Source: Spirochaetia bacterium (GTDB lineage Bacteria; Spirochaetota; Spirochaetia; DSM-16054; Sediminispirochaetaceae). Taken from it: a stretch of DNA of 64,000 nt. Below are positions 7,548 to 51,522 of the stretch, piece by piece (positions within the stretch are counted from its first letter, which is position 1; every line of letters begins with the position of its first letter). The DNA lies in assembly GCA_034520965.1 (NCBI GenBank), contig JAXHMY010000001.1, forward strand, positions 96,001 through 160,000, read 5' to 3'. Under the pieces are notes generated by a model, which saw nothing but the letters and a program-made list of their open reading frames with translations, was not told where the DNA came from and did no database searches. The translations under genes were made by a program, and so were the position numbers.

Positions 7548-7689
7548 CAGCGATTCTCAATTTGGAAGTCTTCTGACTTCCAAATTGAGAATTCGCATCA
7601 AATTCTTTGCAAATTTTTATATATCTTAACTTTTGGAGGCATTCTCAATTTGGATAGTGTAATTACACTATCCAAATTGAGAATTGCTG
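7548..7689. mobile_element. Double-hairpin MITE-like element, copy 1 (142 bp)
   Basis: CAGCGATTC...GAATTGCTG ends; 9-bp direct repeat TAAATGCCT at 7539-7547 and 7690-7698; palindromes at 7553-7592 and 7641-7684. Confidence 0.88.
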
Positions 7690-7777
7690 TAAATGCCTAT
7701 GAAAGCTTACGATGAGTATAGCACAGCATTGAAAACCGCCTATTCCTACTAAAGGCATTTTTTGTTACAATTGTGTT

Positions 7778-8530
7778 ATGAATACAACATTAACAGATAC
7801 AGCATCAAGAGCAGAGCGAAATAAGGCCTGGGCAGTGCACCTATTTACCGCCGCGGGTGCAATTGCAGGATTAAATGCTCTTATTCATATTTTGCAAGGA
7901 GATGTAACGGGAGTACTCATATGGCTTGTGATTGCCCTCATAATTGACGCTGCAGATGGGCCTCTCGCGCGCCGGTACCGGGTTGATAAAGTTCTGCCCA
8001 ATGTGGACGGCGTAGTCCTCGATCATGTGATCGACTACAGCACCTACGCATTGATTCCTGCAATCTTTCTCTACGAATTCAAGCTGGTACCGCCCGGCTG
8101 GGAGCTGGCGGCCGCAGCAGTGGTAGTGGTAAGCTCGTTGTACTGTTTTGCCAACAAAGGGCTAAAAGCCGAGGACAACTTTTTTACCGGCTTTCCCGCC
8201 GCCTGGAATCTGGTTGTATTAGGTTTTTATCTTCTTGAAACATCCCCTGTGCTAAATCTCGTACTTGTACCGATTATTGCAGCCCTAACCTTTACACCCA
8301 TTAAGGTGATACACCCCTTCCGGGTGCGCGCCTATCGCCCGCTTACAATAACTTTAACCTTCCTGTGGACGGCTTTGGCTGTTTACCTGGTAATCGAGAG
8401 AAAATCCAGTGGAAATCTATTTGAGTATGATCCTCTATTCTTGTGGGCTTTTATCCTGATCTCTGCCTATTTTATCATCATAAGCTTGATCCGCACTTTT
8501 CGGGAAGGCTCTGATAAGTACAGTAATTAG
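7778..8530 (+). CDS. pcs: Phosphatidylcholine synthase (CDP-alcohol phosphatidyltransferase family)
   Basis: AWAVHLFTA, DAADGPLAR...DGVVLDHVIDY, FTGFPAAWN and IHPFRV motifs. Confidence 0.88.
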   Translation: MNTTLTDTASRAERNKAWAVHLFTAAGAIAGLNALIHILQGDVTGVLIWLVIALIIDAADGPLARRYRVDKVLPNVDGVVLDHVIDYSTYALIPAIFLYEFKLVPPGWELAAAAVVVVSSLYCFANKGLKAEDNFFTGFPAAWNLVVLGFYLLETSPVLNLVLVPIIAALTFTPIKVIHPFRVRAYRPLTITLTFLWTALAVYLVIERKSSGNLFEYDPLFLWAFILISAYFIIISLIRTFREGSDKYSN

Positions 8531-8716
8531 GAAAATCGTCTCCACCTACATGTCTGATCCGGTAGACGGCATCGCAGGGCTGGGGATCGCGTTTTCCGAA
8601 AAAATAGCCTTGTGCGCACCTTGCGCCGAGCCGTTAGGCAGTTCTCAGCTCATCTTCACTCTCTATACCTTGCACAAGGACCCTCCCCTCGTGCAAGGAG
8701 CTCGTAGCCGAAAATC

Positions 8717-8755
8717 TTGACGCCACCATTATTATGGTACATACTTATGGTATGT
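8717..8755 (+). promoter_or_regulatory. Promoter and palindromic operator of the vapBC module
   Basis: TTGACG-N17-CATACT; inverted repeat ACATAC-N5-GTATGT overlapping the -10. Confidence 0.55.
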
Positions 8756-8760
8756 CGAAT

Positions 8761-9022
8761 ATGAACAGACGGGCGACTTTCGCTCTTGATGAGGAGACAG
8801 TCCACAGAATAAAAAAACTTGCAGGCCTTATGCATATTTCCCAAGCTGAGGTGGTCCTGTCGGGCAGTTGCGCTGGCTGAAGAGAAAGTCGACGAGACAG
8901 AGGCGGAGAAAATAAAGCGGATAGAAGCATACCATCAAAAAGGAGGAATAGCAGCGGAAAAGGCGGAAGAGTATCTCGCTGAAGTGAGAGTTAACCGTTC
9001 TTTTTGGGGTAGAAACTGGTGA
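8761..9022 (+). CDS. vapB: Ribbon-helix-helix antitoxin (VapB-like), frameshift near 8857
   Basis: MNRRATFALDEETVHRIKKLA...SQAEVV continues as RAVALAEE in another frame; overlaps the PIN gene start. Confidence 0.7.
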
Positions 9023-9393
9023 TTCTTCTTGATACAAACTACCTCATCCGCTTCCTTGTCGAAGGAACTTATGAGGCCGAACGGGTAAAAAGCTGGATAC
9101 AACAGAAAAAAGAGCTTTGCACCTCCTCTATCTGTTGGTACGAATTTTCCTGCGGGCCGGTTGACGAGGAAGCTATTAACCTGGCCGCCTCAATCCTGAA
9201 CGAGCAGATTTTCCCTTTCTCCCCCGCCCAGGCTCGGGAAGCTGCCCGTCTCTTCAACCGTTGCGGCCGCACGCGCTCCTTACGGGTGGACGCAATGGTG
9301 GCCGCTGCAGCTATCATCTCCGAATCGGTTCTAGCGACGGAGAACTCGGAAGATTTCGCTCCCTTTGCTTCCTTTGGGCTGAAGCTGATATAA
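9019..9393 (+). CDS. vapC: PIN-domain toxin VapC
   Basis: ILLDTNYLI, WYEF, DAMVAA and LATENSEDF motifs. Confidence 0.9.
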   Translation: MILLDTNYLIRFLVEGTYEAERVKSWIQQKKELCTSSICWYEFSCGPVDEEAINLAASILNEQIFPFSPAQAREAARLFNRCGRTRSLRVDAMVAAAAIISESVLATENSEDFAPFASFGLKLI

Positions 9394-9519
9394 AGAAAGA
9401 GGAATGGGAAAAACCACTATACCTCGTCACCAGCCCGATAACTCTTAGCTGGGGCTGAGCCCCCAGCAGAAAACCTCTACCTGTTCCGTCAACATCTAGT
9501 AGAATGTTCACATCTTCGT

Positions 9520-9768
9520 TCAACCGGAGTTCTCAAAAGCCAACAAAGTTAAGGTAATAGTTTGATCTTCATAGGTGTAGGCAAGAAGAGTTAACTGCTT
9601 ATTCATATTGAATTTATAAACAAGAACATCTGAAAGATCCCCGGTTTTAGCCTGACCACTATCGGGATCTTTCATAATGGCCTTTACCGCCTTGTCAAGA
9701 TCTGCTTTTTGATTGGCATGCAGTCTTTTATACACCTTTTTAAATGATGGTTTTTGTAAAACGCGCAT
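9520..9768 (-). CDS. RelE/ParE-family toxin, C-terminus possibly truncated
   Basis: FKKVYKRL, DPDSGQAKTGDL and VYKF motifs; downstream of an antitoxin. Confidence 0.8.
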   Translation of the reverse strand: MRVLQKPSFKKVYKRLHANQKADLDKAVKAIMKDPDSGQAKTGDLSDVLVYKFNMNKQLTLLAYTYEDQTITLTLLAFENSG

Positions 9769-9771
9769 GGT

Positions 9772-9984
9772 TTACTCTTGTGAAAAATTGAACGGTTCTG
9801 CCTCTTCCTGCTGTGCAAGAAGAATCTGCTGGATAAAGCTGTAGGGCAGATCCGGGTTTTCTTCTGCAATTTTACCGATACGTGACCAGTATTCAATTTG
9901 TTTGGGAGTTGAGCGGCTATAAACGGCTGCATACCTTTTCGCTTCGTTAATTAAGTCGTCTGAAAGCTTAATTGTCATTGACAC
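9772..9984 (-). CDS. ParD-like antitoxin
   Basis: RSTPKQIEYWSRIGKIAEENPDLPYSFI signature; AGGAGG RBS before GTG at 9984. Confidence 0.85.
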   Translation of the reverse strand: MSMTIKLSDDLINEAKRYAAVYSRSTPKQIEYWSRIGKIAEENPDLPYSFIQQILLAQQEEAEPFNFSQE

Positions 9985-10258
9985 GGTCTTACCCTCCTGA
10001 ATTAAGTCTATAGTTATAATATAGGTAATAAGAGGTAAAAATACAACTTTATCATGCAAAAAGTTTCGCTAAAATCGGGGGCTTGCTGTTCCCCGAAGAT
10101 CAAATCAAGGGACAAGGTATTCGGCGGGTTGCTAACTGACAATTGCCCCCCCTTCAAGGCCCCGTTGGAAAAACCCCTTTATCTGGGAAAAGGCATCCAG
10201 AACCTCCGTCCCATGAGGGGTTCATCATATTTTTTTTAGACTGAAATTGCAATAAAAC

Positions 10259-10306
10259 TTGACTATTCAACTTAGATTTTCTATCCTAAGTAATACTTAG
10301 TATTAC
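10259..10306 (+). promoter_or_regulatory. Promoter with palindromic operator upstream of znuA
   Basis: TTGACT-N17-TATCCT followed by the 8-1-8 palindrome GTAATACT-T-AGTATTAC (10290-10306). Confidence 0.6.
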
Positions 10307-10371
10307 CAGCTCCTTCTAAGGATAGAATCTACATGGGAGAAGGGCTGAAGTCAATGTAGGAGGAGCAACAT

Positions 10372-11301
10372 ATGTTCAAAGAGAAAAAAAAATTTATCGG
10401 GGTGCTGCTGATAGCAATGGTTTTTCAGCTACTGCCTGTGATAGTTTTCGCCGCAGGCTCCGCTGAGGAGCAGCAGGCCTCCGAGGTTGAAACACTCGAT
10501 GTATACGTGAGTATCATGCCGCAAAAGTACTTTGTTGAGCGCATTGCCGGCGATTTGGCTGAGGTGCATGTGATGGTTCCTCCCGGACGGAGTCCAGCTA
10601 CATACGAACCTACCCCAAAGCAGGTATCGGTCTTGGGCGGGGCGGATGTATTCTTCACCCTTGGGGTGCCCTTCGAACAGAGTTTTCTGCCGAGAATTCG
10701 GGAAAATGTAACGGATCTTTGGATTGTTGATACCTCCGAAGGCATAGAACGCCGAGAAATCCAGTCAACCGTTGAAGATGAGGATCACGAGGATGACCAT
10801 GATCACGGCATGCTGGATCCGCACATCTGGGTATCGCCCCCCCTAGTGGAGAAGCAGGCCGAGAACATGTTGAAGGCATTGGTGGAGTTGGCTCCAAAAC
10901 GGGAGCAAGAATTGCGGGCGAAGTATCGCGAATTTCAGGCAGATCTGCAAGAGCTGCACGAGGATTTGAAGACCATACTCGAACCTGTTGAGGGAAGCCC
11001 CCTCTTCGTCTACCATCCCTCTTTCGGCTATTTCGCCGAAACCTACGGTTTGCATCAACTCCCCATAGAATTGGGCGGAAACGAACCCAGTCCCAAACAA
11101 CTTCAGAGGGTGATCTCCCTAGCCAAGGAGCGCGGCGTACGGGTGATATTCGTTCAACCGGAGTTCTCAAAGACCAGTGCCCAGCGGGTAGCGGAGGCGA
11201 TAAACGGGGCTGTAGTAGAAGTGGCCCCTTTGAAGCTCGATTATCTGCAGAATATGCGACAAATCGCACAGGAGGTTCGTCAAGGTCTGGAAGGCAAATA
11301 A
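10372..11301 (+). CDS. znuA: Zn/Mn ABC transporter substrate-binding protein (orphan)
   Basis: His/Asp-rich loop, DPHIW and YHPSFGYFA motifs. Confidence 0.88.
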   Translation: MFKEKKKFIGVLLIAMVFQLLPVIVFAAGSAEEQQASEVETLDVYVSIMPQKYFVERIAGDLAEVHVMVPPGRSPATYEPTPKQVSVLGGADVFFTLGVPFEQSFLPRIRENVTDLWIVDTSEGIERREIQSTVEDEDHEDDHDHGMLDPHIWVSPPLVEKQAENMLKALVELAPKREQELRAKYREFQADLQELHEDLKTILEPVEGSPLFVYHPSFGYFAETYGLHQLPIELGGNEPSPKQLQRVISLAKERGVRVIFVQPEFSKTSAQRVAEAINGAVVEVAPLKLDYLQNMRQIAQEVRQGLEGK

Positions 11302-11709
11302 CTCTTTTACGAAGCCGTGGGTCAATATCTCAGTTCCGATAACCATTTATGACTCTGGAATCGGTCGCCCCCTGCCTATAAAGAAACAGAGGCGTACCGC
11401 AGGACCAAAGGTCCGAGGAACGCAGCGAGAATCGGCCGTTAGGTCGGTTCTCGCTGCGTTCCCTATCACTGTTTTTCGGCATACAACATTACTATAACGA
11501 ATACTATTCTGGTCCGCAACTTCGAGCCGGACGGCGAATCGAATGGCTTCACCACACGCATCACCCGTATCAATATACGGTGAGTTTTACAAGATAGTCT
11601 TGAAAGAGATCAAAAGAGAGGAGTTCTTGTTGCATAACCGAGGCCGGTTGAAAAACCTTAACGCTATAATTGCGGGAACCGGTACGGTACCCGCAGTTGC
11701 GGCTTCTAC

Positions 11710-11795
11710 TTTCATTCTTTTCATTCTTTTCATTCTTTTCAGGTCTTTTCAGGTCTTTTCAGGTCTTTTCAGGTCTTTTCAGGTCTTTTCAGGTC
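11710..11795. repeat. Compound tandem repeat (TTTCATTCT)x3 + (TCTTTTCAGG)x6
   Basis: Read directly from the sequence. Confidence 0.95.
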
Positions 11796-12094
11796 ATATT
11801 TTTCTGTTGCTTTTTTATAAGAAAATACCAGGCGGCGGCCATCCCGATATCCGGTTCTCCGTCTATCACAGCCTGAATATCCTTCATGGAAGCCACTTTC
11901 TTTCCTAAATCATCTTTCACGGTTTTGCCGTCGAAGTCGAGAAGCTTTTTCCCTCTGTTATCCCGGATACTTTTACGATCTATTTGTCCCAACAGAGCGG
12001 CATTCCACCCTCTTACATAAGTGCGGTCGATTTCCCCCATCTTTCTGCCTGAACTGTCCCTCAGCACAGTTCCATCATAGGTATACTCTGCCAT
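11789..12094 (-). CDS. Small beta-repeat hypothetical protein (beta-flower-like)
   Basis: AGGAGGGG RBS; repeated (V/I)xDxxGxxxGxxD units. Confidence 0.65.
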   Translation of the reverse strand: MAEYTYDGTVLRDSSGRKMGEIDRTYVRGWNAALLGQIDRKSIRDNRGKKLLDFDGKTVKDDLGKKVASMKDIQAVIDGEPDIGMAAAWYFLIKKQQKNMT

Positions 12095-12324
12095 ATCCCC
12101 CTCCTGATGATAGATAGTATAGTTCAGAATCAACAGAATTTCCGGTATCCACTACTTAACTTGTCATCCATATTTACGACATTCTTTTCGTGTATTTTGT
12201 ATCGTGAATATCGACACGTATAATTATTATCATTACTATTTGATGTATGTAAAAAGTGAACAGCCCACCGCTTCACAGTTGATCTATCCCTCGATCGCTT
12301 TGGCGTAGGCAAGCAATTCTGCAA

Positions 12325-12681
12325 TTAATCATTCAGTCTTTGCGACTCGAACTTCTGCCGAAGCTCTTCATTGCTCTTCCCCGAGTCGAACTCAGCATAG
12401 AAGACTCCTTCGTCACTTTCGTTTATGAAGAACTCTCTGTATTCTCCTTCGCCGAGTACCATTACATAGCGGTACAGGGATAATGAGGCAGTAAGACTTT
12501 TCGGCTTTGATTCGGGAGGGGCTGCTTCGAATCGATATATACCGATACGCCCTTTCATTATGGCTTCGAGTGTTTTCTCTATTTTTATATACTGCTCTTC
12601 ATCGACCAAGCCATTCCAGATCATTCCGAGAATTAATACACTCTCCAAAGAATCCGGCTTGATCTCTATTTTTGTAATCAT
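12325..12681 (-). CDS. Hypothetical protein
   Basis: AGGAGG RBS before MITKIEIK; no family recognised. Confidence 0.55.
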   Translation of the reverse strand: MITKIEIKPDSLESVLILGMIWNGLVDEEQYIKIEKTLEAIMKGRIGIYRFEAAPPESKPKSLTASLSLYRYVMVLGEGEYREFFINESDEGVFYAEFDSGKSNEELRQKFESQRLND

Positions 12682-12739
12682 TTTATAGCCTCCTAATCCC
12701 CTTCCCTTTCTAAATTTCAAGATATTATGTTTTTAGACA

Positions 12740-13195
12740 TTGTCAATGAAAATCTATTTGGAATTTTCTTTTGCAATCGGAATTGTATTGAATGTAGGTT
12801 TTATTATTGTTGAAGTAACCTTCGGGCTACTAGTAAACTCCTTGGCCTTGATTGCCGATGCCGGAATTTCGTTTGGAGTTGTCATCGTCGGACTCGTGTT
12901 AACTTTTACAAGTTTTTACTGGCTCGACCCGGTTGTGAGTATCATAATTGCATTGATAATATTTTGGGGCACTTGGAACCTGTTGAAGGATTCTACAAGC
13001 TTAGCGCTTGAAGCTGTTCCGAAAGAAATTGATATAGCAGGGGTTGAAAAGTATCTTACCTCTCTGCAGGAAGTAGAGAGTGTTCACCATCTGCATATTT
13101 GGGCAATGAGTACAACTGAAACTGCTCTTACTATTCATGCTACAATTCAAATAGAAGACCCGGGTGATCCAGACTGCAAGCAGAATCATATTTGA
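12740..13195 (+). pseudogene. czcD: Internally deleted CDF (CzcD/ZitB) metal exporter
   Basis: SLALIADAG joined directly to ISFGVV; LDPVVS, HHLHIWAMST and HATIQIE motifs; about half the normal length. Confidence 0.75.
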
Positions 13196-13212
13196 GCGCG
13201 CCAGGACTGTCG

Positions 13213-14553
13213 TTAGAAGCCCCCCCTCAGCGTCACTATACTGTGGGCCGGCACCTCACATGCTGACGCTTTGGCCTCTGTTTTTTCTTTTATTAAGACC
13301 CGGAAATCTGTTTCAGACTCGTTCATAACCACAACTACGATTTCATCAGTAGGAGTAAGAAATGCGATATGATGCAATTTTTCAGTGTGCTCAGCTTCAC
13401 TTGAACCGATACGGACCGAGCCGGGAGGCACAAAGCGGCTAAAATGTCCTATGTACCAGTATGAGCTGTTGTAATAAAGCTCTCCGGCGGCGGTGTCGGC
13501 AATAATCGGGGCATCGCAGTAGTTGCCCACATGGTTTGGGCCGCCGCGTTCATCAAGGACAATATTCCAATCAATCCACGCCTCTACCCAGTTGCGCATA
13601 TCCCCAATGATGTTTCTCCCGTAACGCTCACCGGTGAACCACTTCCCTACCTGCGGGCCGCCCTCCTGACAGCCTTCGGTAAAAATAAGATGCGTTTCGG
13701 GGAATGCATTGTGCAGCCGGCCCAGGTTTTCAAACTCCTCGGAGACATACCAGTGATGCCCGACTCCCCATACATAGCCGGCGGCCTCTCTATCGGAGAG
13801 GACATGCCGAGCTCGTTCAAAAACCAAATCGCGGTTATGGTCCCAAATCAGCAGCTTCAGGCCTGAAAAAGCGGATCCGGCAACAGTTGGTCCAAGGTAG
13901 TCTCGCACAAAATCCCGCTCTTCGGCGGCAGTGTACAGGCAGGAATCCCACACTTGCACGGCCGCCGGCTCATTCTGTACGCTTATCGCATCTATACTGA
14001 TTCCCTGTGCAGCCATAGCCTGCAGATAGCGAATGTAATAGTCGGCCCAGACTTGGCGGAATTCCGGTCGCAGGGTGCCCCCGCCGTTCATGTCTCCGTT
14101 GGTTTTCATCCATTCCGGCGGGCTCCAGGGCGAGGCAAGCAGAAAAAGCGGGCGGCCGGCAATAACCTGGGCCTGATGGATAGTCGGAAGTACCCATCGC
14201 CTCTCCCTGGAGATATCGAAGCTCTTGAGCTCGGTATCAAAGCTATCTACATAGCTGTAGTTTTTTAGACTGAAATCGCACGAATTGATGTGTACCCGGC
14301 TCATCGTGTAGGCGTTTCCCCGCCGGGGATCAAAATAGGCCTGCAGCACCTTTTCTCTCATATCCTCCGGTAACCGGCTCAGTGTATAGGCAGCAGCCTC
14401 TGTAATTGCACCGCCAAAACCAAGGACAGTTTGGTATTTCTTTTCAGGCAGAATCTCTATCTCACAATTCGCCCTCTCTGAGTCCGGGACTGCGTATCCA
14501 ATATCTGTTATCCGCTCGCCCTTTTCAAAACTCGTTCGAAACATCTGTAACAA
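13213..14553 (-). CDS. Glycoside hydrolase family 30 (glucosylceramidase / beta-1,6-glucanase-like)
   Basis: GFGGAITEA, ASPWSPP, QNEP, FTEGC and GGPNH motifs; GGAGGG RBS before TTG at 14553. Confidence 0.9.
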   Translation of the reverse strand: MLQMFRTSFEKGERITDIGYAVPDSERANCEIEILPEKKYQTVLGFGGAITEAAAYTLSRLPEDMREKVLQAYFDPRRGNAYTMSRVHINSCDFSLKNYSYVDSFDTELKSFDISRERRWVLPTIHQAQVIAGRPLFLLASPWSPPEWMKTNGDMNGGGTLRPEFRQVWADYYIRYLQAMAAQGISIDAISVQNEPAAVQVWDSCLYTAAEERDFVRDYLGPTVAGSAFSGLKLLIWDHNRDLVFERARHVLSDREAAGYVWGVGHHWYVSEEFENLGRLHNAFPETHLIFTEGCQEGGPQVGKWFTGERYGRNIIGDMRNWVEAWIDWNIVLDERGGPNHVGNYCDAPIIADTAAGELYYNSSYWYIGHFSRFVPPGSVRIGSSEAEHTEKLHHIAFLTPTDEIVVVVMNESETDFRVLIKEKTEAKASACEVPAHSIVTLRGGF

Positions 14554-14602
14554 TTCGGCACCCTCCAATAAATAATTGCCTTTAACCAATTGCCTATAAC
14601 AG

Positions 14603-14633
14603 AGCCCCGCCGGATTTTTTATCCGGCAGGGCT
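14603..14633 (-). terminator. GC-rich stem-loop after the binding-protein gene (terminator or mRNA stabiliser)
   Basis: AGCCCCGCCGGAT...ATCCGGCAGGGCT. Confidence 0.5.
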
Positions 14634-14681
14634 TCAAGTAGAAAAAACCGTCTTTTGAATCAGAACTAAGTTTACTCCAGC

Positions 14682-15965: not shown

Positions 15966-15995
15966 GGCAATAGCCTCCTTTCATAATCTGTTTCC

Positions 15996-16066
15996 TTTAT
16001 AGCTCGCCGCCGGCAGACTGTCTTTTGTCAATATTAACACCCGCTATTGGATATAATTGATACAGC
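15996..16066 (-). promoter_or_regulatory. Activator-dependent promoter of the binding-protein gene (shared with 22396-22466)
   Basis: Ungapped alignment with 22396-22466: TATAAA -10, AAGACA -35, upstream TATCAAT and TGTTAA boxes. Confidence 0.65.
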
Positions 16067-16080
16067 AAGACCTCATAGCA

Positions 16081-18909: not shown

Positions 18910-18938
18910 AGAAATACGCTCCCCCTTAATCCGAAACC

Positions 18939-20594: not shown

Positions 20595-20599
20595 ATACT

Positions 20600-22363: not shown

Positions 22364-22395
22364 CTGCCCTCCTTTTCTCCCCTGGTTCAGTTACA

Positions 22396-22466
22396 TTTAT
22401 ATAAGAAGGGCAATGAGTTGTCTTTCAAGTATGTTAACAGTTTATTTTGTACAATATTGATATAGG
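22396..22466 (-). promoter_or_regulatory. Activator-dependent promoter of the permease operon
   Basis: Same boxes and spacing as 15996-16066. Confidence 0.65.
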
Positions 22467-22566
22467 ATCACAGTAACCGGCAACGCGAAGGACTCCAGCA
22501 CACAATACGTCTTAACAAATATTGAGAACTGCTATGTTTGTGCTTATAATTTATGTAAGGTGTTCT

Positions 22567-24069: not shown

Positions 24070-24078
24070 ATAGACTTA

Positions 24079-29265: not shown

Positions 29266-29324
29266 TGTCGCTTGTTTTATTATACCCGAAAAAAAAGAGG
29301 AAATAAAGTTTATTTAACATAACG

Positions 29325-29466
29325 CAGCGATTCTAAATTTGGAAGTCTTTTGACTTCCAAATTTAGAATTCGCATCAATTTCTTTGCAAAATTTTATATA
29401 TCTCAACCTTTGGAGGCATTCTCATTTTGGATAGTGTAACTACACTATCCAAAATGAAAATAGCTG
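29325..29466. mobile_element. Double-hairpin MITE-like element, copy 2 (142 bp)
   Basis: CAGC...GCTG ends; 9-bp direct repeat AACATAACG at 29316-29324 and 29467-29475. Confidence 0.88.
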
Positions 29467-29647
29467 AACATAACGCCCCTTAAATGTACCATCCTGAAGT
29501 ACCACAAATATAAATTTTCCTGCACAACTCCTTTCAGTGATGCTATAATAAAAGCTGATGGAACAAAAGTAACGTTTTTTCTGACAACCTGCTCAGCACA
29601 TTTCAATCGTTTTATATTTGTTACAATCTAAAAAAGGGAGAATCGGT

Positions 29648-31173
29648 ATGAAAAAGAATAAAAAGCTAACTTTTATCAATGGAGCTCCGGTGGCCGACAA
29701 TAACCACTCGCTCACCGCAGGTTCACGAGGTCCAATGGCGATGCAGGATATCTGGTATCTGGAAAAACTTGGACATTTCGATCGTGAGGTAATTCCAGAG
29801 CGTAGGATGCACGCAAAGGGCTCCGGTGCGTTTGGTAAGTTCACCGTAACCCATGATGTGACTAAATACACAAAAGCGAAGGTTTTCTCAGAGGTGGGAA
29901 AGGAAACAGAGACCTTTGTTCGCTTCTCCACGGTTGCCGGAGAACGGGGGGCAGCAGATGCCGAACGGGATATCCGAGGCTTTGCGGTAAAATTTTATAC
30001 CGAAGAAGGAAATTGGGACTTGGTGGGGAATAATACACCTAGTATTTTTCCTTAGAGATCCCTTAAAGTTCCCCGACCTGAATCATGCCGTCAAGAGAGA
30101 CCCTAAAACCAACATGCGGTCAAAGCAGAACAACTGGGACTTCTGGAGCATGCTTCCCGAGGCGCTCCATCAGGTTACTATCGTTATGTCCGACCGGGGC
30201 ATCCCCAGCGGCTATCGACATATGAACGGCTACGGCAGCCATACCTACAGCCTAATCAATGGGCAGAACCGGCGCTATTGGGTGAAATTTCATTTAAAGA
30301 CCCAACAAGGTATTAAAAACTTCACCGATCAGGAGGCCGCTGCAATCGTTGCCGAGGATCGCGAGAGCAGCCAAACCGACCTGTTCGGCGCTATTGAACG
30401 GGGTGAATACCCAAAGTGGACCATGTATTTTCAGATTATGACCGAGGAGCAGGCACGTCAGCATAAGGAGAATCCCTTCGACCTCACAAAGGTTTGGAGC
30501 CATAAGGACTTTCCCGATGATCGAGGTTGGAGAGCTGGAACTCAACCGGAACCCGGAAAACTATTTCCAAGATGTGGAACAGGCGGCTTTTGCACCGACC
30601 AATATTGTGCCGGGTATCGGCTTTTCCCCCGACAAGATGCTCCAGGGGCGGCTTTTCTCATATGCCGATGCCCAGCGCTACCGTTTAGGGGTCAACTACC
30701 ATCAGATTCCCGTGAATAAACCCAAAAACACGAAAAACGCCTACCACAGGGACGGACAAATGCGGGTGGACGGTAATTACGGTGCACGTACCCATTACGA
30801 GCCAAACAGTTATGGAGAATGGGCTGAACAGCCGGAATTTCGCGAACCGTCGTTAGAGCTGGAGGGGGCCCTTTATCATTACGATCCGGCTGATGATCAA
30901 ACCGATGATGTCTTCTATCAACCCGGCAATTTATATAAGCTGATGAGCGAAAAGCAAAAACAGCTCCTTATCGAGAATACCGCGCGGGATATAAGTCCGT
31001 GTACTAAAAATATCAAGGTTCGGCATACGGTGCACTGCTTTTTGGCTCATGAGGACTATGGACGACGTTTAGCCCAGGCCCTAGAGCTGGATATGAGGGA
31101 AATCGAAGAAAAGGCTAAACTAGATAATCAAGAGCTTCTAAAGGCAACCATGGCCGATGTGTATAGCGGCTAA
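29648..31173 (+). CDS. katA: Monofunctional heme catalase, two frameshifts (near 30045 and 30515)
   Basis: [26 protein letters not shown] and [12 protein letters not shown] motifs. Confidence 0.95.
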
Positions 31174-35705: not shown

Positions 35706-35760
35706 TACGTCATTTCTTACTCTATTTATAATTGCTATATCTATATAATGTCCAAAAAAT

Positions 35761-35782: not shown

Positions 35783-35831
35783 ATTGGATATACTAACTTT
35801 TAGACAACTTTGAATCTATAAGGAGAAGGAA

Positions 35832-36903: not shown

Positions 36904-36918
36904 GAAAAGGGACTTATA

Positions 36919-39605: not shown

Positions 39606-39701
39606 GTTAGAGTAAATTTTGAAGCACTTTGAAATTTAAGAATCCCCGTGGTATGATATTGTGTACACCAGCAATAACAATAAGCAAGGGGATTCCAGCA
39701 A

Positions 39702-41963: not shown

Positions 41964-41981
41964 ACAGCATAGGAGAGAAAA

Positions 41982-43004: not shown

Positions 43005-43105
43005 ACTCCCGAAGGCTGAAATGAAAGGCCGGCTCTCATAGGTCTGTCTCTGCGAGCCGCCTTGCTAATATTGACAGTTCGCCGACATATCATGTACCGT
43101 TCCTC

Positions 43106-44612
43106 ATGCTTAGTTCCGCACTTTTTTTGGATAGAGACGGTACGCTGATTGAAGATGTCGGTTACCTTTCAGACATAGAAGATATTCATTTTATTCCGGG
43201 CATATTCGATATATTAAGACGCTTACAGAAAAGGTATTCTTTGTTTGTAGTGAGCAACCAGGTCGGAATTGCGAAGGGGTTGCTTAGCCACACACAGGTG
43301 AATGCAGTAAATCGCCATATCGATTCGGTTTTTCAGCAGCAGGGCATACACATACAGCAGTGGTTTGTCTGCCCCCACGATCGGGAGGCGGAGTGCAGCT
43401 GTATGAAGCCCGAACCGGGTTTTCTGCTGCAGGCAGCGGAAGAACATGGGCTTGATCTTAGCCGCTCTTTTGTAATTGGCGACCATCCCCACGACCCCGC
43501 TACAGCCGGAGCGGTAGGGGCTTTCGGGCTGTATGTGCTTTCCGGACATGGAATGAAGCATCTGGAAGAGCTTCCCCCGGAGCAGCTGGTTTTTCACGAC
43601 CTGCCCGCCGCGGGAGAGTGGATTCTGGAGCATCCGAATCCAAAAAGCGACCTCGAAGCGGAAGTTGCCCGTGGGGCCGCTGCCCTTCAAGCGGGAGGGT
43701 TGACTGTGTTTCCCACCGAGACAGTGTACGGTATTGGGGCCGATGCCCTGAACCCCGATGCGGTTGCTATGATTTTCGAAGCCAAGCAGCGCCCCCTTCA
43801 CGACCCGTTGATTGTGCATGTAGCCTCCATTCAACAAGTCACCACTTTAGTGGAACATATTCCGCAAAAGGCTGTTCACTTAATGGAGACATTCTGGCCG
43901 GGACCGCTCACCCTCGTTCTTTCCAAAAGCAGCCGCGTGCCGGACATTGTAACCGCCGGAAATCACACAGTGGCCATCCGCATGCCGGGCAATCCTCTGG
44001 CTCTGCAGCTGATTCGTACAGCGGGAGTGCCGGTGGCAGCCCCCAGTGCAAACTTGTTTGGGCGCACCAGTCCTACTACCGCCGGGCATGTAAAAAACCA
44101 GTTGTCGGGCAGTTATGCCGCCTTAATCGACGGGGGAACGTGCCGGGTTGGGGTTGACTACAGATCTCGCTGACCGGAGAAACTCCTGTCATATTACGGG
44201 AGGGTGGACTGGCTCGGGAAGATATAGAAGAAGCTATCGGCACAATTATGAGCCGCGAAGAGGATGGGGAGGCAGCGTACGACGGTCCGGGCACGGCTGC
44301 CGGACCACTATGCCCCCACAACTCCTTTACGACTGGTCGATGATATTGAGCAGTATATGGGCTCTCCAAAAGTCGGCAAACTCTGTTTTCAAAGCCGTCC
44401 AGAGACGCAGGGTTTTCCACAGGCTGCAGACAAGACGGTCCGAATACTCAGCCCGCGGGGGGATGTGCGTGAGGCCGCAATTAATTTGTACCACCAGCAT
44501 GCAGGAGCTGGATGCCATGGGGCTCGACTTAATAGTCGCCGAGTTCGCCCCAAACCATGGGCTGGGCCGGGCAGTCAACGACCGGCTGAAAAAGGCCTCC
44601 CAAAAAACATAG
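43106..44612 (+). CDS. sua5: Fusion of HAD-IIIA (GmhB/HisB-like) phosphatase and Sua5 threonylcarbamoyl-AMP synthase; frameshifts in the 3' third
   Basis: FLDRDGT and CPH...CSCMKP, then FPTETVYG, DPLIVH, FWPGPLT, AAPSAN and AVNDRLKKA. Confidence 0.85.
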
Positions 44613-44637
44613 CCCCTAGAACAATTTGATTAGCACT

Positions 44638-45029
44638 CTATTTTTCCGGTTTTATATCAAGAATCGGGGTGCCGTCCAACATGTCTAGTCCACTTACGCC
44701 TATCCGGTTTCCCCTCACTCCCGTCACTTTGAGTTTAGAGATACCAAGTTGATTTGGACGAACCGGAGAACGGGTACTGAATACACCTCGTAGAACTCCC
44801 CGACTGGGAGGCCTCACCCGCAGATGTTCCCGGCGAAAGGGTGCGACCTCCGCCGTAAGTCAGAACAGCTGCGCTCAATAGAGCTGCCAGCCCTAATGTC
44901 GGTGAGTCCCTCTTCATACTGCTCATCAATCACCAATTCGCCCCTCACATCTGATATTGAGTAAAAACGCGGGACCGAGCTTGCCTTGGTAGACACATAT
45001 CCGATCGGATCTAATGAAATACTGACCAT
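44638..45029 (-). CDS. tsaA: TsaA/TrmO-family SAM-dependent methyltransferase, frameshifted
   Basis: LDPIGYV; alternate frame gives GVFSTRSPVRPNQLG and GLDMLDGTPILDIKP. Confidence 0.75.
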
Positions 45030-45165
45030 TTTGTTCTTTCCTTCACAAGCCAGCTTATGGAAAATGCATTTAAGCCTCAAGGGAATAGCTTTTATACTGC
45101 CGTTTTTTTAGCAAAGATTTAGCATGGATGCTTACAAATTGAGTCATTTAATATATATTTTAAGT

Positions 45166-46761
45166 ATGCCCCTGATAGAAAGAAAAAGCATAGAACGTCT
45201 CACTCCCACAGAAATACTCTACAGTAATGCCGGCAGTTTGCTGAAAGCCGGACAACCGGTAACCGACAATGTAATTGGCGAACTCGCCAAGCGGCGAGTT
45301 CCTTATGTTGAAACCTGCCGTCCTACCCAAGAGGAAGTTGCGGCTGCAGAGGGAGACCGAGAAGCGGCTATCGAAGAAATGGGAAAACTCATCCTCAATG
45401 AACAGCAGCAACAATTTAACTCATTGAGGGAACGGCTGATAGAAAATTTAAAGTCTATATACTTGCCTTATAGCGAAGAGGACCGCAGTTTTCACAGCCG
45501 CGGTCGAAAAAAGCAGATCAGCCGCGGCGATTTACTTACCAACAGCCTCAATCCCCTCGTCAGAGATGATGTAGCGGCCGGCAGCGCTGCGGTAGTAGAT
45601 GCAAATGTGCTGCGGTTTACCCGTGAGTTCATCAACACTTTTTACTCCTTGCTTGCCGATCGGGAGGCACTGACACCGGAAACCCGCAAAAAAAGAAAAG
45701 TAATCCACAGATTGCACTTGAGCAAAGTACGGCTTCACAGCCATTACGACGGCGAGCGAATCAACTCCGTGGGAGATGCTCTTGCAGCTCAAGCTGCCGA
45801 CACTATGCTAATGTTCCTGCATGCCATGGTAAATCTTAATAAAAAGCGAATTTTAGCCGGTAAACCACTCTCTGAATCGAAATACCGCCCCGAGCTTAAA
45901 AAGAGCACGGATGAGGTATACCGCTACGATGAAGATTTTATTAAGGAGGCAGCCCTGGGCGTAGCGCTGATGAACCTGGGCCTCGCGCACAAGGACGTCC
46001 ATCGACTTCTGCCTACATCAACCCTTAATCCGGACAATCGCAGCGATCAGCTGCGGATTCGTACCCTGCAGCGAAGCGTGTATGCGGGCCAACATTTATT
46101 GGATCGCGAGGATATATCCTCCCTTGCACGAATGATGGTGAGCCTGCAGTTCGACTTTCCCGATGCAACCGGTTACCCGCCGCCCTTTAAAAACCGTTTT
46201 CTCCACGATTTTGTGCGGCTTTTTCAGATAGTACGCACCTACGATGAAATGACCAATCCGGTTCTGGGCCGTACAGCTTATAACCGGATGGATGTAATTC
46301 GTTATCTCCGTGAACAGAGCGGTGAATACGCACCAACTAAAACTCCCCCGGGGGAACATGCCAAATTCGATTCAAATTTAGTAGAGGAGTTTATTTCTAT
46401 ACTGGCACCGTATCGAAAGGGCGAACTTGTGTTCTTATACCCCGGCTCCAGGCGCAGTGAACATATTTATGTGGGAAAGGTCCACAGCTACCTTGATTCA
46501 CATCTGCCGCTCATTTCAATTCTCAAAGATGAAAAAACCGGCCGCCGCTACCGGGACGGGCAACTGCTGATTTACGTCCCTAAATCGATGCTGTTTGTAA
46601 TGAAGAATGGCAAAGTACTCAAGCGTAACAACTTCGGATGGATAAAAGAGCTCCAAATATATGACAAACATGTAGATGCCGGACATGTGAATGAATACGA
46701 GGACTTCATTTTCGGACGGCAGCGCTCCTTCGCGAAGCAGCTGAAAACTGCACGCAGATGA
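45166..46761 (+). CDS. Degenerate HD-GYP-like protein
   Basis: PDATGYP, IVRTYDEMT and KFDSNLVEEF motifs; HD and HHE residues absent. Confidence 0.6.
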   Translation: MPLIERKSIERLTPTEILYSNAGSLLKAGQPVTDNVIGELAKRRVPYVETCRPTQEEVAAAEGDREAAIEEMGKLILNEQQQQFNSLRERLIENLKSIYLPYSEEDRSFHSRGRKKQISRGDLLTNSLNPLVRDDVAAGSAAVVDANVLRFTREFINTFYSLLADREALTPETRKKRKVIHRLHLSKVRLHSHYDGERINSVGDALAAQAADTMLMFLHAMVNLNKKRILAGKPLSESKYRPELKKSTDEVYRYDEDFIKEAALGVALMNLGLAHKDVHRLLPTSTLNPDNRSDQLRIRTLQRSVYAGQHLLDREDISSLARMMVSLQFDFPDATGYPPPFKNRFLHDFVRLFQIVRTYDEMTNPVLGRTAYNRMDVIRYLREQSGEYAPTKTPPGEHAKFDSNLVEEFISILAPYRKGELVFLYPGSRRSEHIYVGKVHSYLDSHLPLISILKDEKTGRRYRDGQLLIYVPKSMLFVMKNGKVLKRNNFGWIKELQIYDKHVDAGHVNEYEDFIFGRQRSFAKQLKTARR

Positions 46762-46790
46762 TTCCTGAATAGTTGTCGGTTAGTTGCCGG

Positions 46791-47492
46791 TTAGTTGCCG
46801 CGGGCTTCGGCCTTCTTGCTACGTTTCTGCTCGAGCATATTGTTGAGCCACTTGTAAATCACCGGAAAAGCCTCTGCCACGTACCCCTTCTTGGGGATCA
46901 TAAAAAGGAAAGCCTGTTCCCTATCCGGTACCACCGCGATGTGACGCAAGTACTTCGGCTGCTTCAGTTTCTGTTTGAGGTTTAACAGATCTTTTTTTAT
47001 AGCATCATCCGCATAGTAGAGCAAAAAATCATGTTCCCCCCAGCGAAGTTCTTCCTTCTGAAGCTGATCTTCATTAGTAATTTTCGGTCCGCGAAATCGG
47101 GAGTATTTTTCTTCAATCAGATGTCCTTCACTTACCAGACCCATCGCCTTTTTTGAGAAGAACAACATCAGAAACAGGCGATCGAAGCGAAAGGTCAGCA
47201 AGGAAAATGGAAGATACAACCATGACTGCCTCGGCAGCAGAGTAATGGTGGCATCTACACGGCGTATAAAACTGTTTTTCTTCGGGATCAGATTGGCATG
47301 GTATCCGGTTTCTCCCCCAATTTTTGTAAAACTTTGATCCTTTGGTTTAAGGGTATCTACTAGAGCATTGAAAGCAGAGAGAAAAATTCGCTTATTACCA
47401 CGATGTCCCCAGCTATAGCCTAGAGTAAGCAGAATAGTAGCTGCAATAAAAAGATAGAATATTGGTTGTTGTGTTACCTCTACTTCGCCCAT
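46791..47492 (-). CDS. Membrane-anchored hypothetical protein in the cstA-arsA operon
   Basis: N-terminal TM helix; abuts the arsA-like gene. Confidence 0.7.
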   Translation of the reverse strand: MGEVEVTQQPIFYLFIAATILLTLGYSWGHRGNKRIFLSAFNALVDTLKPKDQSFTKIGGETGYHANLIPKKNSFIRRVDATITLLPRQSWLYLPFSLLTFRFDRLFLMLFFSKKAMGLVSEGHLIEEKYSRFRGPKITNEDQLQKEELRWGEHDFLLYYADDAIKKDLLNLKQKLKQPKYLRHIAVVPDREQAFLFMIPKKGYVAEAFPVIYKWLNNMLEQKRSKKAEARGN

Positions 47493-47493
47493 G

Positions 47494-48427
47494 TTATTTG
47501 TTCTCCTGAAAAGTTTGTATTAGGTTTTTATCCATTATGTAGCAGGTGGGTTCCGGTTCGGCTATGTTGGGCACCCGTTCGACAGTTACATCGGAGCGGC
47601 CCTTCAATAACTCCTGTTCCACCCTTTGTGCTATATCGCTGTTTGGATTGTCGAGTTTATTGTGAAACACAGTATGCATCGGTAAATCAAGGTCTTTTAC
47701 TCCGGTCATGAGCCGCTGGGATTCCCGTAAAGAGAGATAGTCTGGGTTAAAAACCACGCAGATGCTGTTTTTGTCACCCCCCAGCCAATTCTGGACATTC
47801 TGATACCGCTCCCGCATATCCAGCAGCTTTCGCATCACCGTGTCCTCCGACTCCAAATAAGCCAGTTTCGTACCCTTCTCATTGTACTTTCCGCTGAGTT
47901 TGTGAATCGTATAACGTTTCTCCAGAATCTGTTTGCGGAGTTTAACCAAACGGTCAATCCAGGCCACCGTTATTTTAGGTAAGGCCGGAAGATTTAAGGG
48001 TAAGCCCGGTGGGCGGAGTATCAATGATAATATAATCGTAGTTCTCCTGCTCTTCCCTAAAGAGTTTTTCCATGGCGGTAATGGCGGCGTATTCTTCTAC
48101 CCCGGGTGAATATTTTAGTACATTAAAGTAGCTGTCCATATTGAAGGGTTGCATGTAGCTATACACCTCGTTCAACAGGGACATATTAGCCTCAATATAC
48201 TCATTGGCAGATTGCTCTAAGTCAGTCTCCTGTAAAAAAAGGTTTGTCTTCTTAAACCGTTTTTTACGGTGGCTGAGTTTAATATGAAAAATGTCGCCAA
48301 GGTTATGAGCCGGATCAAAGGAGACCGCTAGGACGCGGTTGCCCGCTTCCATCAGCTGCCAGGCAACTGCGGAGGCCAAAGTAGATTTGCCTACCCCTCC
48401 CTTCCCACTGAAAAAGATCGTTTTCAT
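47494..48427 (-). CDS. ArsA/GET3-family ATPase, frameshift near 47995
   Basis: GKGGVGKST, DPAHNLGD, PGVEE and DTPPTG motifs. Confidence 0.88.
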
Positions 48428-48454
48428 GAGTAAAGCCTTTTGTTATGCATAGAA

Positions 48455-48757
48455 TTAATCAATGTCCAACAGACTTGCCATATCGGCAAGAGAATCGAAG
48501 GAATCCTTCGCGCGTTCGTTCAGGACTTTGATTTCGTGCTCCAGATGAGGTAAGAGTTCCGCCGCCACAAAGGATGGGGGCGACGGAATTCCTGTAAATG
48601 AGCCCATCAGCAACAAAACAAACAGGTTCTCAAGTTCCTTAACTTCGAACTCGGTTACCTCGGTTACCTTGTTGCGATGGGATTGGTCCATGGTGGAAAA
48701 GAAAAAACGTATATATCCAAAAATTCTGGCGAACACGCCGCCTTTTCCACCATGCAT
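48455..48757 (-). CDS. Small CstA-associated protein
   Basis: ELENLFVLLLMGSFTGIPSPP...ELLP; lies between cstA and the arsA-like gene. Confidence 0.7.
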   Translation of the reverse strand: MHGGKGGVFARIFGYIRFFFSTMDQSHRNKVTEVTEFEVKELENLFVLLLMGSFTGIPSPPSFVAAELLPHLEHEIKVLNERAKDSFDSLADMASLLDID

Positions 48758-48762
48758 AGGAC

Positions 48763-50482
48763 CTAGGCCTCTGAAGTCAGAGGTTTGTTTTTGTTTTTGA
48801 GGAAGTCGATGATAAACACAAAGTTCATAATCAACATCACAATTTCAATCAGCAGTACTACAATTCCTGTAGTAGGATTGGATTCAATGGTTCCCGGCAG
48901 AACAACAACTGAAAACCAGATAATAGCCGCGGTAACAGTGATCCACAGCAGGTAAGCCGGAATCAGTACTATGTTTGCATTCTTGGCTTTCTGCCGTTTG
49001 ATTACCCAGGCGGCACCGGTCAGCAATGCGATCGACGCAATCAGCTGGTTCGCGGAACCAAAGGAGGGCCACAAAATAGTAAAACTACCGCTCCATGCCA
49101 GGTAGATACCGATAATCGCAGGTATTGTAGAAGCAATCCAGCGGTTGGTCAGGAAGTTAAACATACCCTCATTTCTGTCTTTCATCGGAAGAAGGATTTC
49201 TGAAAGGGTGTAGCGACCCAGACGGTTGGTAGTATCCAGTGTAGTCATTGCAAATGAGGCAACCCACATTCCTGCAATAACCTTTACAATCTCAGTTGGC
49301 AGAATTGTGAGGAAGGTACTGTCTACCATCGCCGCGTAGGAATTGGTAAAGACAGTTGCAGCACCGTAGCTGGCGTTCATTGCGCCGGCGTACGCGTTGC
49401 CCCAGTTAGCGGCGGTAAGATCTTGACCTGCACCTTGAATGATGGAAAGGCCGAAACCGGAGACCGAAATGATTACAACAGTCGACAAAAACCCCTCGGT
49501 CAACATCGCCCCGTATCCAATCGGCAGACCATGGCTCTCTTTTTCAATCTGCTTGGAAGTTGTACCGGAACCTACCAATGCGTGGAACCCCGAAAGAGAA
49601 CCACAGGCGATGATCAAAGGAATAACCGGCCAGAATGGAGACGGCTGACCGCCGGATACGATGGGTGCAAAGGAAGTGAATGCCGGAGCGGTAAAGCCTG
49701 CAAAACTAAAGATAGCGGCGATACCACCGATTGCAAGCCCGATATACAATAACCAGGAGTTCAGGTAGTCACGGGGCTGCAGCAGGATGTTTACCGGTAC
49801 TGCCGATGCAATAATAATGTAGAAGAACATTACCAGCATCCAAGTATCCCGACTGGCGTTTATTGGGAACTGGTGTCCGCCGATAATTGCCAGTATCAGC
49901 ATTGCAATACCAATAAGGGTAGCGGCGGTAAAGTTCATCTTTACCCGATACAGCAGCACACCCAAAATGAGAGCGGCAACCAATTTCAGGATGTAAGCAC
50001 TGGGTACCTGGCCGTTTGCAACAAACATATTACCCAGTACCGCACCAAAGGCACCGATTACCAGAATCAGCAGGAAGAATACCAGCCAATAAAAGGTCTT
50101 TCCTGTGCGCTTTGAGATAACATCGGAGGCGACGAACTGTACCGACCGTCCGTCATAACGAACCGAGGCCATCAAAGCCAGATAATCGTGTACCGCACCT
50201 ATAAAGATGTTTCCAAACCAGACCCACAGGAGTCCCGGAACCCATCCCCAAGCCATTGCAAGAACCGGACCAACGATTGGTGCGGCACCGGCGATGGAGG
50301 CGAAGTGGTGCCCGAATAGAACCGGCGCCTTTGCAGGAACATAATCTACCCCGTCGAACATACGCTGCGACGGAGTCTCATCATCAGTAGCTTTTACTAC
50401 GCTCCGGTTCAAGTTTCCTACCATAGGTAAGATACAACAGAACATACACAGCTAAACCGACTACAACAATGAGAGTAGTCAT
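48763..50482 (-). CDS. cstA: Carbon starvation protein A family transporter, frameshift near 50405
   Basis: DGVDYVP, GHHFASIAGAAPIVGP, QPRDY and IACGSLSGFH motifs. Confidence 0.93.
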
Positions 50483-50608
50483 ACAATAAACCTCCCGTAA
50501 AATAGATATTCTCATTAAAATACGGGAGGTCGCTTAAGTCAAGCCCTTTTTTCAAATCTTAGAGCTAACTAATTTAATAGAGTAAATAAATTTATTAGTT
50601 GAGACCGC

Positions 50609-51104
50609 CTAGAATCTGAAAAAGCTGTATTTATTCTTATAGTAACTGTCCAGAAAACCAATCTGTTTCTGTAGGTAATCGTAGTGGCCCCGTTCCCAGT
50701 CGGCCAGATAGTTAAAAAACTCTTTTAACTTATCCTGATCAGATGCCTGGGCCATCTCTTTATAAAACTTCGCAGATTCAAGTTCGAGTTTGATTCCGAT
50801 TGACATGGTGGACATTTCAAAATCCTTGTTTCCAACCTTGTCCTTAAATTCCCTGGTAAAGATAGGGCTCTCGGCATCTTCGAAGGTGGTTGGCTTTGGA
50901 AGGTCCGGCACCGTCACATCGCGTCCTTCTGAATACTCAGTGGCTAGTTTTACCAGGGTATCCAGGTGAGTTTGTTCTTCATCAGCCAGCATTTTGAACA
51001 CGTCTCTCGCCTTCTTATCATCTGTTTTGTCCGCCGCGGCCTTATAAAGCTCACGCCCTCGATTTCGCCTTTAATAGCTGTTTCGAATGCTTGTTTAGAT
51101 CCAT
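50609..51104 (-). CDS. Ferritin-like/rubrerythrin-family protein, frameshifted near the 5' end
   Basis: EIEG..Y, EEQTH and WERGH di-iron motifs. Confidence 0.82.
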
Positions 51105-51195
51105 ACTTAACTCCTTTTTTCATTTTGCTTCTGATTCCAGTATAATAAAACCACTTGCTGAAATCAAAAAAGCGTTGGGTTTTTCTTTGATATGT

Positions 51196-51336
51196 CAGCA
51201 ATTCTAAATTTGGAAGTCTTCCGACTTCCAAATTTAGAATTTGCTTCATTTTCTTAGTAAAAATTGGTAGATCAATACAGTTGGAGGCATTCTCAGTTTG
51301 GATAGTGCAATGCACTATCCAAACTGAGAATTGCTG
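51196..51336. mobile_element. Double-hairpin MITE-like element, copy 3 (141 bp)
   Basis: CAGCAATTC...GAATTGCTG ends; 8-bp direct repeat TGATATGT at 51188-51195 and 51337-51344. Confidence 0.88.
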
Positions 51337-51382
51337 TGATATGTCTTTTAGGCTTGTATTTTGCAAAAAAAGGTTCTTATAC

Positions 51383-51522
51383 CAGCAATTCCAAATGTAG
51401 AAGTCTTTCAGACTTCTACATTTGGAATTTGCTTCAAATACTTAGCACATATTACAATTTCTTAACACGATGAGGCATCAGAATGTGAAGTGTGCATCGC
51501 ACACTTCACATTTCGAATGCTG
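51383..51522. mobile_element. Double-hairpin MITE-like element, diverged copy 4 (140 bp)
   Basis: CAGCAATTC...GAATGCTG ends; flanks TTCTTATAC / CTCTGATAC (7 of 9 match); both hairpins retained. Confidence 0.8.

What the first reader, a model, noticed from the sequence alone, without database searches (positions are those of the whole stretch)
7548..51522. Four-copy family of ~141-bp double-palindrome mobile elements with target-site duplications
Seen: four non-coding copies (7548-7689, 29325-29466, 51196-51336, 51383-51522) share one layout: CAGC, hairpin 1 (GAAGTC/GACTTC core), an AT-rich spacer of about 45-48 nt, GAGGC, hairpin 2 (AGTG/CACT core), GCTG. Each is flanked by its own direct repeat (TAAATGCCT, AACATAACG, TGATATGT, and an imperfect 7/9 pair). 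The terminal motif occurs four times per element in alternating orientation, not twice as in an ordinary MITE. Known: 8-9 bp duplications indicate staggered-cut insertion by a transposase. Inference: a non-autonomous element mobilised in trans by an enzyme not encoded in this window. I cannot assign it to a named IS, MITE or REPIN family. Four copies in 64 kb suggests many more genome-wide.
Basis: partly seen in the sequence, partly recalled or inferred. Interest (0 to 1): 0.85.

Follow-up and report, generated by a model that had tools for sequence, protein, structure and literature searches.

The report
Double-hairpin mini-transposons landing beside promoters
These four repeats belong to a family of small non-coding jumping elements with two hairpins, likely moved by a Tn5-like transposase whose own ends match theirs, and they sit unusually often 17-18 bases upstream of predicted promoters, a habit I found in print only for an unrelated transposase group.

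Summary
Observation confirmed. The four copies belong to a genome-wide family: 80 profile loci, 58 full length, 42 with an exact 9-bp duplication. A related genome has empty sites for copies 3 and 4, each with the duplicated bases once.

The missing enzyme is very likely found. A 1.4-1.9 kb IS with the same CAG-starting ends encodes a 440-aa DDE transposase. Databases name it ISNCY and its predicted fold is closest to Tn5. This genome holds one copy with an in-frame stop. So this is a MITE of a catalogued IS type, which lowers novelty.

Two features remain unusual. (1) Each end is folded back into a hairpin whose inner arm lacks the terminal CAG; the autonomous IS has plain ends. (2) A sigma70-like -35 box lies 17-18 bp from an end at 18 of 50 sites (mean 2.1 at other offsets). 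This replicates in other spirochaete loci (25 of 97 ends) but not outside them (1 of 19). I found this habit in print only for Mutator-like p-MULT elements. The scan noted the promoter targeting and a nested IS1111 earlier in other windows of this genome. New variant of a known kind.

The parts
7548..7689 (+). MITE copy 1 (142 bp): hairpin 1 at 7553-7592, spacer 7593-7640, hairpin 2 at 7641-7684
7539..7547 (+). left copy of 9-bp target duplication TAAATGCCT (right copy 7690-7698)
7501..7530 (-). predicted sigma70 promoter facing away from copy 1: TTGACA at 7530-7525 (17 bp from the element end), 18 bp, TATATT; faces a B12-binding-domain gene
   Evidence: consensus match only
29325..29466 (+). 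MITE copy 2 (142 bp)
29316..29324 (+). left copy of 9-bp duplication AACATAACG (right copy 29467-29475)
29279..29307 (-). predicted promoter facing away from copy 2: weak -35 TTTATT at offset 17, 17 bp, TATAAT; faces a PAS-domain ORF
   Evidence: consensus match only
51196..51336 (+). MITE copy 3 (141 bp); absent at the orthologous site in G002 and G007
51188..51195 (+). left copy of duplication TGATATGT (right copy 51337-51344); present once in G002
51354..51382 (+). predicted promoter: TTGTAT 17 bp from the copy-3 end, 18 bp, TATAC|. The empty allele in G002 reads TATACT; copy 4 sits inside this -10 box
51383..51522 (+). MITE copy 4 (140 bp), minor subfamily, hairpin 2 partly decayed; absent in G002 and G007
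51374..51382 (+). left duplication TTCTTATAC (right copy CTCTGATAC 51523-51531, 7/9); present once in G002

Best explanation
These are non-coding, double-hairpin miniature transposons (MITEs) that are likely cut out and reinserted in trans by a Tn5-like ISNCY-family DDE transposase recognising their outer CAG ends, and likely steered to a spot 17-18 bp upstream of sigma70-type -35 boxes by promoter-bound RNA polymerase. Shown: multicopy dispersal, 8-9 bp duplications, empty orthologous sites, an IS with the same ~19-bp ends, and the 17-18 bp peak. Inferred: this enzyme family moves the MITE; a dimer binds the two outer ends and makes a 9-bp staggered insertion; the duplicated bases fall at about -52 to -44, the UP-element region next to the polymerase alpha subunit, so contact with the holoenzyme (or the DNA shape it imposes) sets the distance. 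The hairpins likely arose by fold-back copying of each end and are likely kept perfect by template switching. The inner arms lack CAG and are likely not cut. Landing just upstream of the -35 box would usually leave the promoter intact.
For: Family: 80 loci, 58 full length, 42 with an exact flanking repeat, always 9 bp among lengths 4-15 tested; found in 12 of 41 genomes searched. Empty sites: G002 has TGATATGT and TTCTTATAC once each and neither element; contigs in 3 of 4 runs join across both copies. Partner: G016:C204 56-1698 has ends matching a G000 MITE end 19/19 and a 440-aa ORF, PF01609 above cut-off, invariant D130, D219, E343 in 77 homologues, model pLDDT 89.9, best fold match Tn5 transposase E 1.6e-8. 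Homologues are named ISNCY and carry the same ends in cyanobacterial plasmids and gammaproteobacteria, with exact 9-bp duplications at L120, L129, L130, L134. Own-genome copy C1:856108-857804, duplication GATTTAGCA. Promoters: 18 of 50 sites versus mean 2.07, max 8, at 107 other offsets; TTG at 17/18 is followed by a TAnnnT box in 13 of 24 cases versus 37 of 216 elsewhere; both ends are used, 11 and 7. Replication in other spirochaete-type loci: 25 of 97 ends versus mean 1.58. Hairpins: 127 cells changed on both arms versus 27 broken; 13 mirrored versus 17 one-sided changes in 21 close pairs whose spacers differ by 4%.
Against: No transposition was observed. The only copy found in this genome has an in-frame stop and ends 3-4 of 19 bases from the nearest MITE end, closer to the minor subfamily of copy 4 than to the main ones; the genome is 86% complete, and 13 of 17 family genomes gave no hit for the transposase, several of them MITE-rich. 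32 of 50 sites lack a scored promoter at 17-18, and copy 4 sits inside a -10 box. Promoters are consensus matches under my own weights, with no transcription start data; the offset was chosen after seeing the G000 peak. The peak was not seen at non-spirochaete ends (1 of 19). The own-genome IS has a good promoter at offset 11, not 17 (read). Compensated cells count related copies many times; there are only 7 and 11 distinct types.
Confidence: 0.72

Rival explanations
1. Same MITE and same transposase, but insertion is not guided by RNA polymerase: the enzyme reads a loose sequence or DNA shape (T-tract then TTG, 8 bp beyond the duplication), or host selection removes other insertions.
For: The strongest single signal is TTG at offset 17 (18 of 100 ends); the duplication has mild preferences (T at position 4, A at 6); 49 of 50 sites lie outside long ORFs, as purifying selection would give.
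Against: A -10-like box follows at promoter spacing more often at offset 17/18 (13 of 24) than for TTG elsewhere (37 of 216), which a short local motif would not give; selection would widen the zone, not fix it to two positions.
Confidence: 0.17
2. The hairpins are functional and selected: the inner arms act as extra transposase-binding sites, or the element is a composite of two 50-bp mini-elements, or the hairpins insulate the downstream promoter as RNA or cruciform structures.
For: Both hairpins are kept across subfamilies more than 20% apart, with a tight length (40 of 50 copies 140-143 bp); exact 50-bp single-hairpin elements with their own 9-bp duplication exist (9 of 42 catalogued elements in other loci). 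This is compatible with the main reading on enzyme and target.
Against: Autonomous copies and the 196-bp Methylococcaceae MITEs have plain single ends, so the enzyme does not need hairpins. L044 joins the outer arm of hairpin 1 to the outer arm of hairpin 2, which is what a deletion from the long form gives. Template switching perfects inverted repeats without selection (abstract starts of PMC8604942 and PMC3820800 in search listing).
Confidence: 0.35
3. The element is moved by a different enzyme: a Mutator-like p-MULT (ISLre2/ISKra4) transposase, a RAYT/HUH enzyme or the IS110 recombinase found inside some copies.
For: Promoter targeting and 8-9 bp duplications are the published p-MULT signature (PMC3942029); the genome encodes an ISKra4-family transposase; hairpins recall REPINs.
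Against: That ISKra4-family element has unrelated ends. The p-MULT element sequences shown from Table S1 begin with G and none of the rows shown ends like this element (not every occurrence was displayed). HUH enzymes make no 9-bp duplication (own knowledge). The IS110 element lies inside the duplicated flanks, as a passenger.
Confidence: 0.05

Closest known systems
ISNCY-family insertion sequences, probably the ISMae2 subgroup (subgroup features recalled, not verified)
   Same: Database name of the partner transposase; CAG ends, 9-bp duplication, single ORF, 1.4-1.9 kb. From memory the ISfinder review lists ISMae2 with CAG ends, 9-bp repeats and 1.4-2.4 kb.
   Different: No sequence comparison with ISMae2 itself was possible; I found no report of MITEs, hairpin ends or promoter targeting for it.
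Prokaryotic MITEs in general (PMC3184786, passages read)
   Same: Under 200 bp, terminal inverted repeats, target duplications, no transposase, intergenic, ends shared with an IS, strong folding.
   Different: Each end is folded back on itself, giving four arms rather than one long stem.
bcr1 of the Bacillus cereus group (PMC3184786, passages read)
   Same: About 155 bp, mobile, two independent stem-loops in a cruciform-like fold kept by compensatory changes.
   Different: bcr1 has 5-bp flanking repeats and the passages read name no enzyme or promoter preference; no sequence relationship was tested.
p-MULT 3 (TnGBS, ISLre2) and ISKra4 group of p-MULT 4 (PMC3942029, parts 2-4 of 6 read, Table S1 searched)
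   Same: 8-9 bp duplications; insertion 13-17 bp upstream of sigmaA -35 boxes; either orientation when the two ends are nearly identical.
   Different: Mutator fold and 5'-G ends, versus a Tn5-like fold and 5'-CAG ends here: the same habit in a different transposase lineage.
IS4-family IS50/Tn5 and IS10
   Same: Closest solved fold; R-x2-W-x-I-E motif at the third acidic residue; 9-bp duplication (own knowledge).
   Different: 12-14% identity; NCBIfam IS4 models far below cut-off; no promoter targeting found in print.

Membership tests
MITE | short, non-coding, multicopy | tested here: met
   136-176 bp, 58 full-length loci; 49 of 50 outside ORFs of 120 aa or more
MITE | terminal inverted repeats and target duplication | tested here: met
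   42 of 58 with exact 9-bp repeat
MITE | empty orthologous sites | tested here: met
   copies 3 and 4 empty in G002; copies 1 and 2 not resolved
MITE | ends shared with an autonomous IS | tested here: met
   0 of 19 mismatches to the G016 IS ends, 3-4 to the own-genome copy
MITE | mobilisation in trans demonstrated | not testable with these tools
   needs an assay
ISNCY (partner) | homology to proteins named ISNCY transposase | tested here: met
   (automatic database names)
ISNCY (partner) | curated NCBIfam model above cut-off | tested here: not met
   only weak IS701, IS4 and IS1634 hits below cut-off; the library may have no model for this subgroup
ISMae2 subgroup | similarity to the ISMae2 transposase and ends | not testable with these tools
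   review not held; papers give only the name; features recalled
p-MULT (ISLre2/ISKra4) | 5'-G ends and Mutator-type transposase | tested here: not met
p-MULT (ISLre2/ISKra4) | insertion at a fixed distance upstream of -35 boxes | tested here: met
   (works like it; not a member)
REP/REPIN | no long target duplication; RAYT/HUH partner | tested here: not met
   9-bp duplications and a DDE partner; RAYT genes were not searched; feature recalled

The most novel reading that the evidence does not exclude
A Tn5-fold transposase lineage has independently evolved docking on promoter-bound RNA polymerase, inserting into the UP-element region, and its spirochaete MITE uses fold-back ends as a selected design (extra binding sites or built-in insulators) so that it can occupy promoters without silencing them.
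Probability: 0.35. Interest if true: 0.75.

Novelty: new variant of a known kind. Interest (0 to 1): 0.5.

Why it matters
It ties an unclassified ISNCY group to the Tn5 fold and gives it about 150 readable insertion ends through its MITE. If promoter targeting holds, it is a second origin of a behaviour described for Mutator-like transposases, whose mechanism is open. A single-ORF, Tn5-like enzyme with a 142-bp substrate makes that directly testable, and could serve to map active promoters. The MITE itself is otherwise ordinary mobile DNA.

Tried and rejected
Rfam: no match. Own-genome PF01609, Mutator and ISKra4/UPF0236 transposases: no matching ends. Plasmid DNA search with the hairpin: no match. 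Viral contigs: no locus for the transposase. PDB sequence search: nothing significant. The IS4-like fragment next to the Methylovulum end (L021) is not the partner: no Pfam hit, and that genome holds the ISNCY transposase with matching ends. Two metagenome pattern hits (L067, L086) look like chance matches in coding DNA and were dropped. Empty sites for copies 1 and 2: no orthologue in 5 genomes for copy 1, two distant ones for copy 2 that I did not align, no joining contig. The idea that the whole element is one long palindrome is weak: spacer self-complementarity 7.5 of 20 versus 5.6 shuffled. Spacers show only 12-16 bp chance-level matches to autonomous interiors. Complex prediction of the transposase with sigma region 4 and alpha-CTD returned 'no answer' (0.73 versus a control at 0.68) and is not used as evidence. 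RNA data were contigs only, so no start sites or expression.
Full report
Observation. The four copies are as described. Each folds into two hairpins far better than shuffles. Layout: a 5-nt cap (CAGC[AG]), outer arm, 3-4 nt loop, inner arm, 48-nt spacer, inner arm, loop, outer arm, cap. The inner arms repeat the ATTCTCAATTTGGA core but not the terminal CAG, so the element has two complete ends and two truncated ones.

Family. BLAST gave 79 merged loci in the genome. A profile built from 29 seed copies gave 80 loci, a few being overlaps of neighbours; 58 were full length and 42 of those had an exact flanking repeat, always 9 bp. Six of the 42 have one decayed end or a one-base shift. Fifty copies with at most 2 mismatches in the repeat were used further. 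They fall into three main subfamilies (22, 16, 7), a pair containing copy 4, and three singletons; 9 copies have a neighbour at 98% or more, so some spread is recent. Matches occur in 12 of 41 genomes searched, in 7 of 9 other genomes of the genus. Of 21 exact end-pattern loci in named genomes, 18 are Sediminispirochaeta or other spirochaete MAGs and 3 are Methylococcaceae.

Mobility. At the orthologous site of copies 3 and 4, G002 has neither element and carries each duplicated word once; G007 also lacks both, with a further short deletion. Contigs in 3 of 4 laid runs join across both copies and keep the spacer between them. Copies 1 and 2 could not be tested.

The enzyme. A pattern search of 17 family genomes showed two inward-facing ends 1,643 bp apart in G016, enclosing one 440-aa ORF. 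It hits PF01609 above cut-off and no NCBIfam model above cut-off. D130, D219 and E343 are invariant in 77 homologues. The model's best structural matches are Tn5 transposases. Named homologues are 'ISNCY family transposase'. Their elements carry the same ends in Calothrix, Gloeothece, Nostoc, Acaryochloris and gammaproteobacteria, with exact 9-bp duplications at four loci; at several others the flanks did not match, and L128, L135, L154 and L157 showed no clear end. The own genome holds one copy at C1:856108-857804 with duplication GATTTAGCA, an in-frame stop and a changed first base. The transposase was found in 4 of 17 family genomes, 3 of 400 others in the phylum and 5 of 301 in the class of G438. 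Such repeats often fall on short separate contigs, so absence is not shown. I recall that the ISMae2 subgroup has CAG ends and 9-bp repeats; I could not check this. All autonomous ends seen are plain, not hairpins.

Target choice. Reading outward from the ends, a -35-like hexamer peaks at offset 17-18, i.e. 8-9 bp beyond the duplication. With my own promoter score, 18 of 50 sites pass versus a mean of 2.07 at 107 other offsets (24 versus 3.5 and 16 versus 1.3 at looser and stricter thresholds). A -10-like box follows in 13 of 24 cases versus 37 of 216. Sites between divergent genes are 18 of 50 versus 350 of 1,575 gaps. In other spirochaete-type loci, after removing exact own-genome flanks and near duplicates, 25 of 97 ends pass versus a mean of 1.58; a few may be orthologous to G000 sites. 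In 19 non-spirochaete ends only 1 passes. In the window, copies 1, 2 and 3 have such a promoter at offset 17; copy 4 interrupts the -10 box of the copy-3 promoter and has only a weak leftward candidate at 16. Guerillot et al. (PMC3942029; parts 2-4 of 6 read, Tables S1 and S2 searched by term) describe this habit for p-MULT 3 and the ISKra4 group, in both orientations when the ends are nearly identical. The rows seen begin with G. Searches found no report for ISNCY or IS4-like enzymes; subscription papers and ISfinder were not searchable.

Hairpins. Changes are mirrored on both arms far more often than they break pairs (127 versus 27 cells, 18 distinct types). Among 21 close pairs, 13 changes are mirrored where under 1 would be expected from the 4% spacer divergence (pairs are not independent). 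This fits template switching or selection and does not separate them. Exact 50-bp single-hairpin forms with duplications occur (9 of 42 elements in other loci); L044 joins the two outer arms, which points to deletion from the long form. 175-bp forms carry an added 33-bp hairpin in the spacer. A two-stem-loop mobile repeat has precedent in bcr1 (PMC3184786, passages).

Nested element. An IS110-family element (PF02371, PF01548) sits in the outer arm of hairpin 2 at C2:70606-72241 and C9:264427-266078, and a relative sits at the same kind of position in L014.

Earlier notes. After forming my reading I found that the scan had reported the promoter targeting with a Tn5-like partner (e1-9963681, e1-9982021) and the nested IS1111 (e1-9012090) from other windows of this genome. 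They are not independent support.

Verdict. A real, mobile MITE family with an identifiable DDE partner of a catalogued but poorly studied type. The double hairpin is unusual but has precedent and may be a by-product. The promoter targeting is the more interesting property and is well supported statistically, though its mechanism is inferred. Interest 0.5.

Noticed in passing
G000:C2:70606-72241, C9:264427-266078, C3:264233-265738; L014: IS110/IS1111-type element inserted at one position in the MITE's terminal arm; the C2 copy is frameshifted.
   Followed up: partly
G000:C3 about 40,600-78,200 and C8:1,300-4,000: Many ~133-bp repeats spaced 1-2 kb apart, like an integron cassette array.
   Followed up: no
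G000:C1:650397-651675, C1:637910-639199 and other copies: Two multicopy ~1.3-kb IS-like elements with perfect ends; some copies also end a few bases from a TTGACA box.
   Followed up: no
G000:C9:278930-280039 (L099): ISKra4-family transposase in two ORFs joined at an A-run, like the ISMich2 frameshift group; ends unrelated to the MITE.
   Followed up: partly
L069, L144, L146, L062: 196-bp ordinary two-ended MITE with the same ends and 9-bp duplications; L144 and L146 lie in a Methylovulum genome.
   Followed up: partly
window 11704-11803: Tandem 10-bp repeat TCTTTTCAGG.
   Followed up: no
window 29618-30055: Catalase N-terminal part of only 145 aa followed by further ORFs, possibly a split gene, just right of copy 2.
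   Followed up: no
window 63958-64000 region is not involved; window about 9529-10083 matches G000:C1:63958-64511: A 555-bp segment at C1:105529-106083 (window about 9529-10083) is repeated at 92% elsewhere on C1.
   Followed up: no
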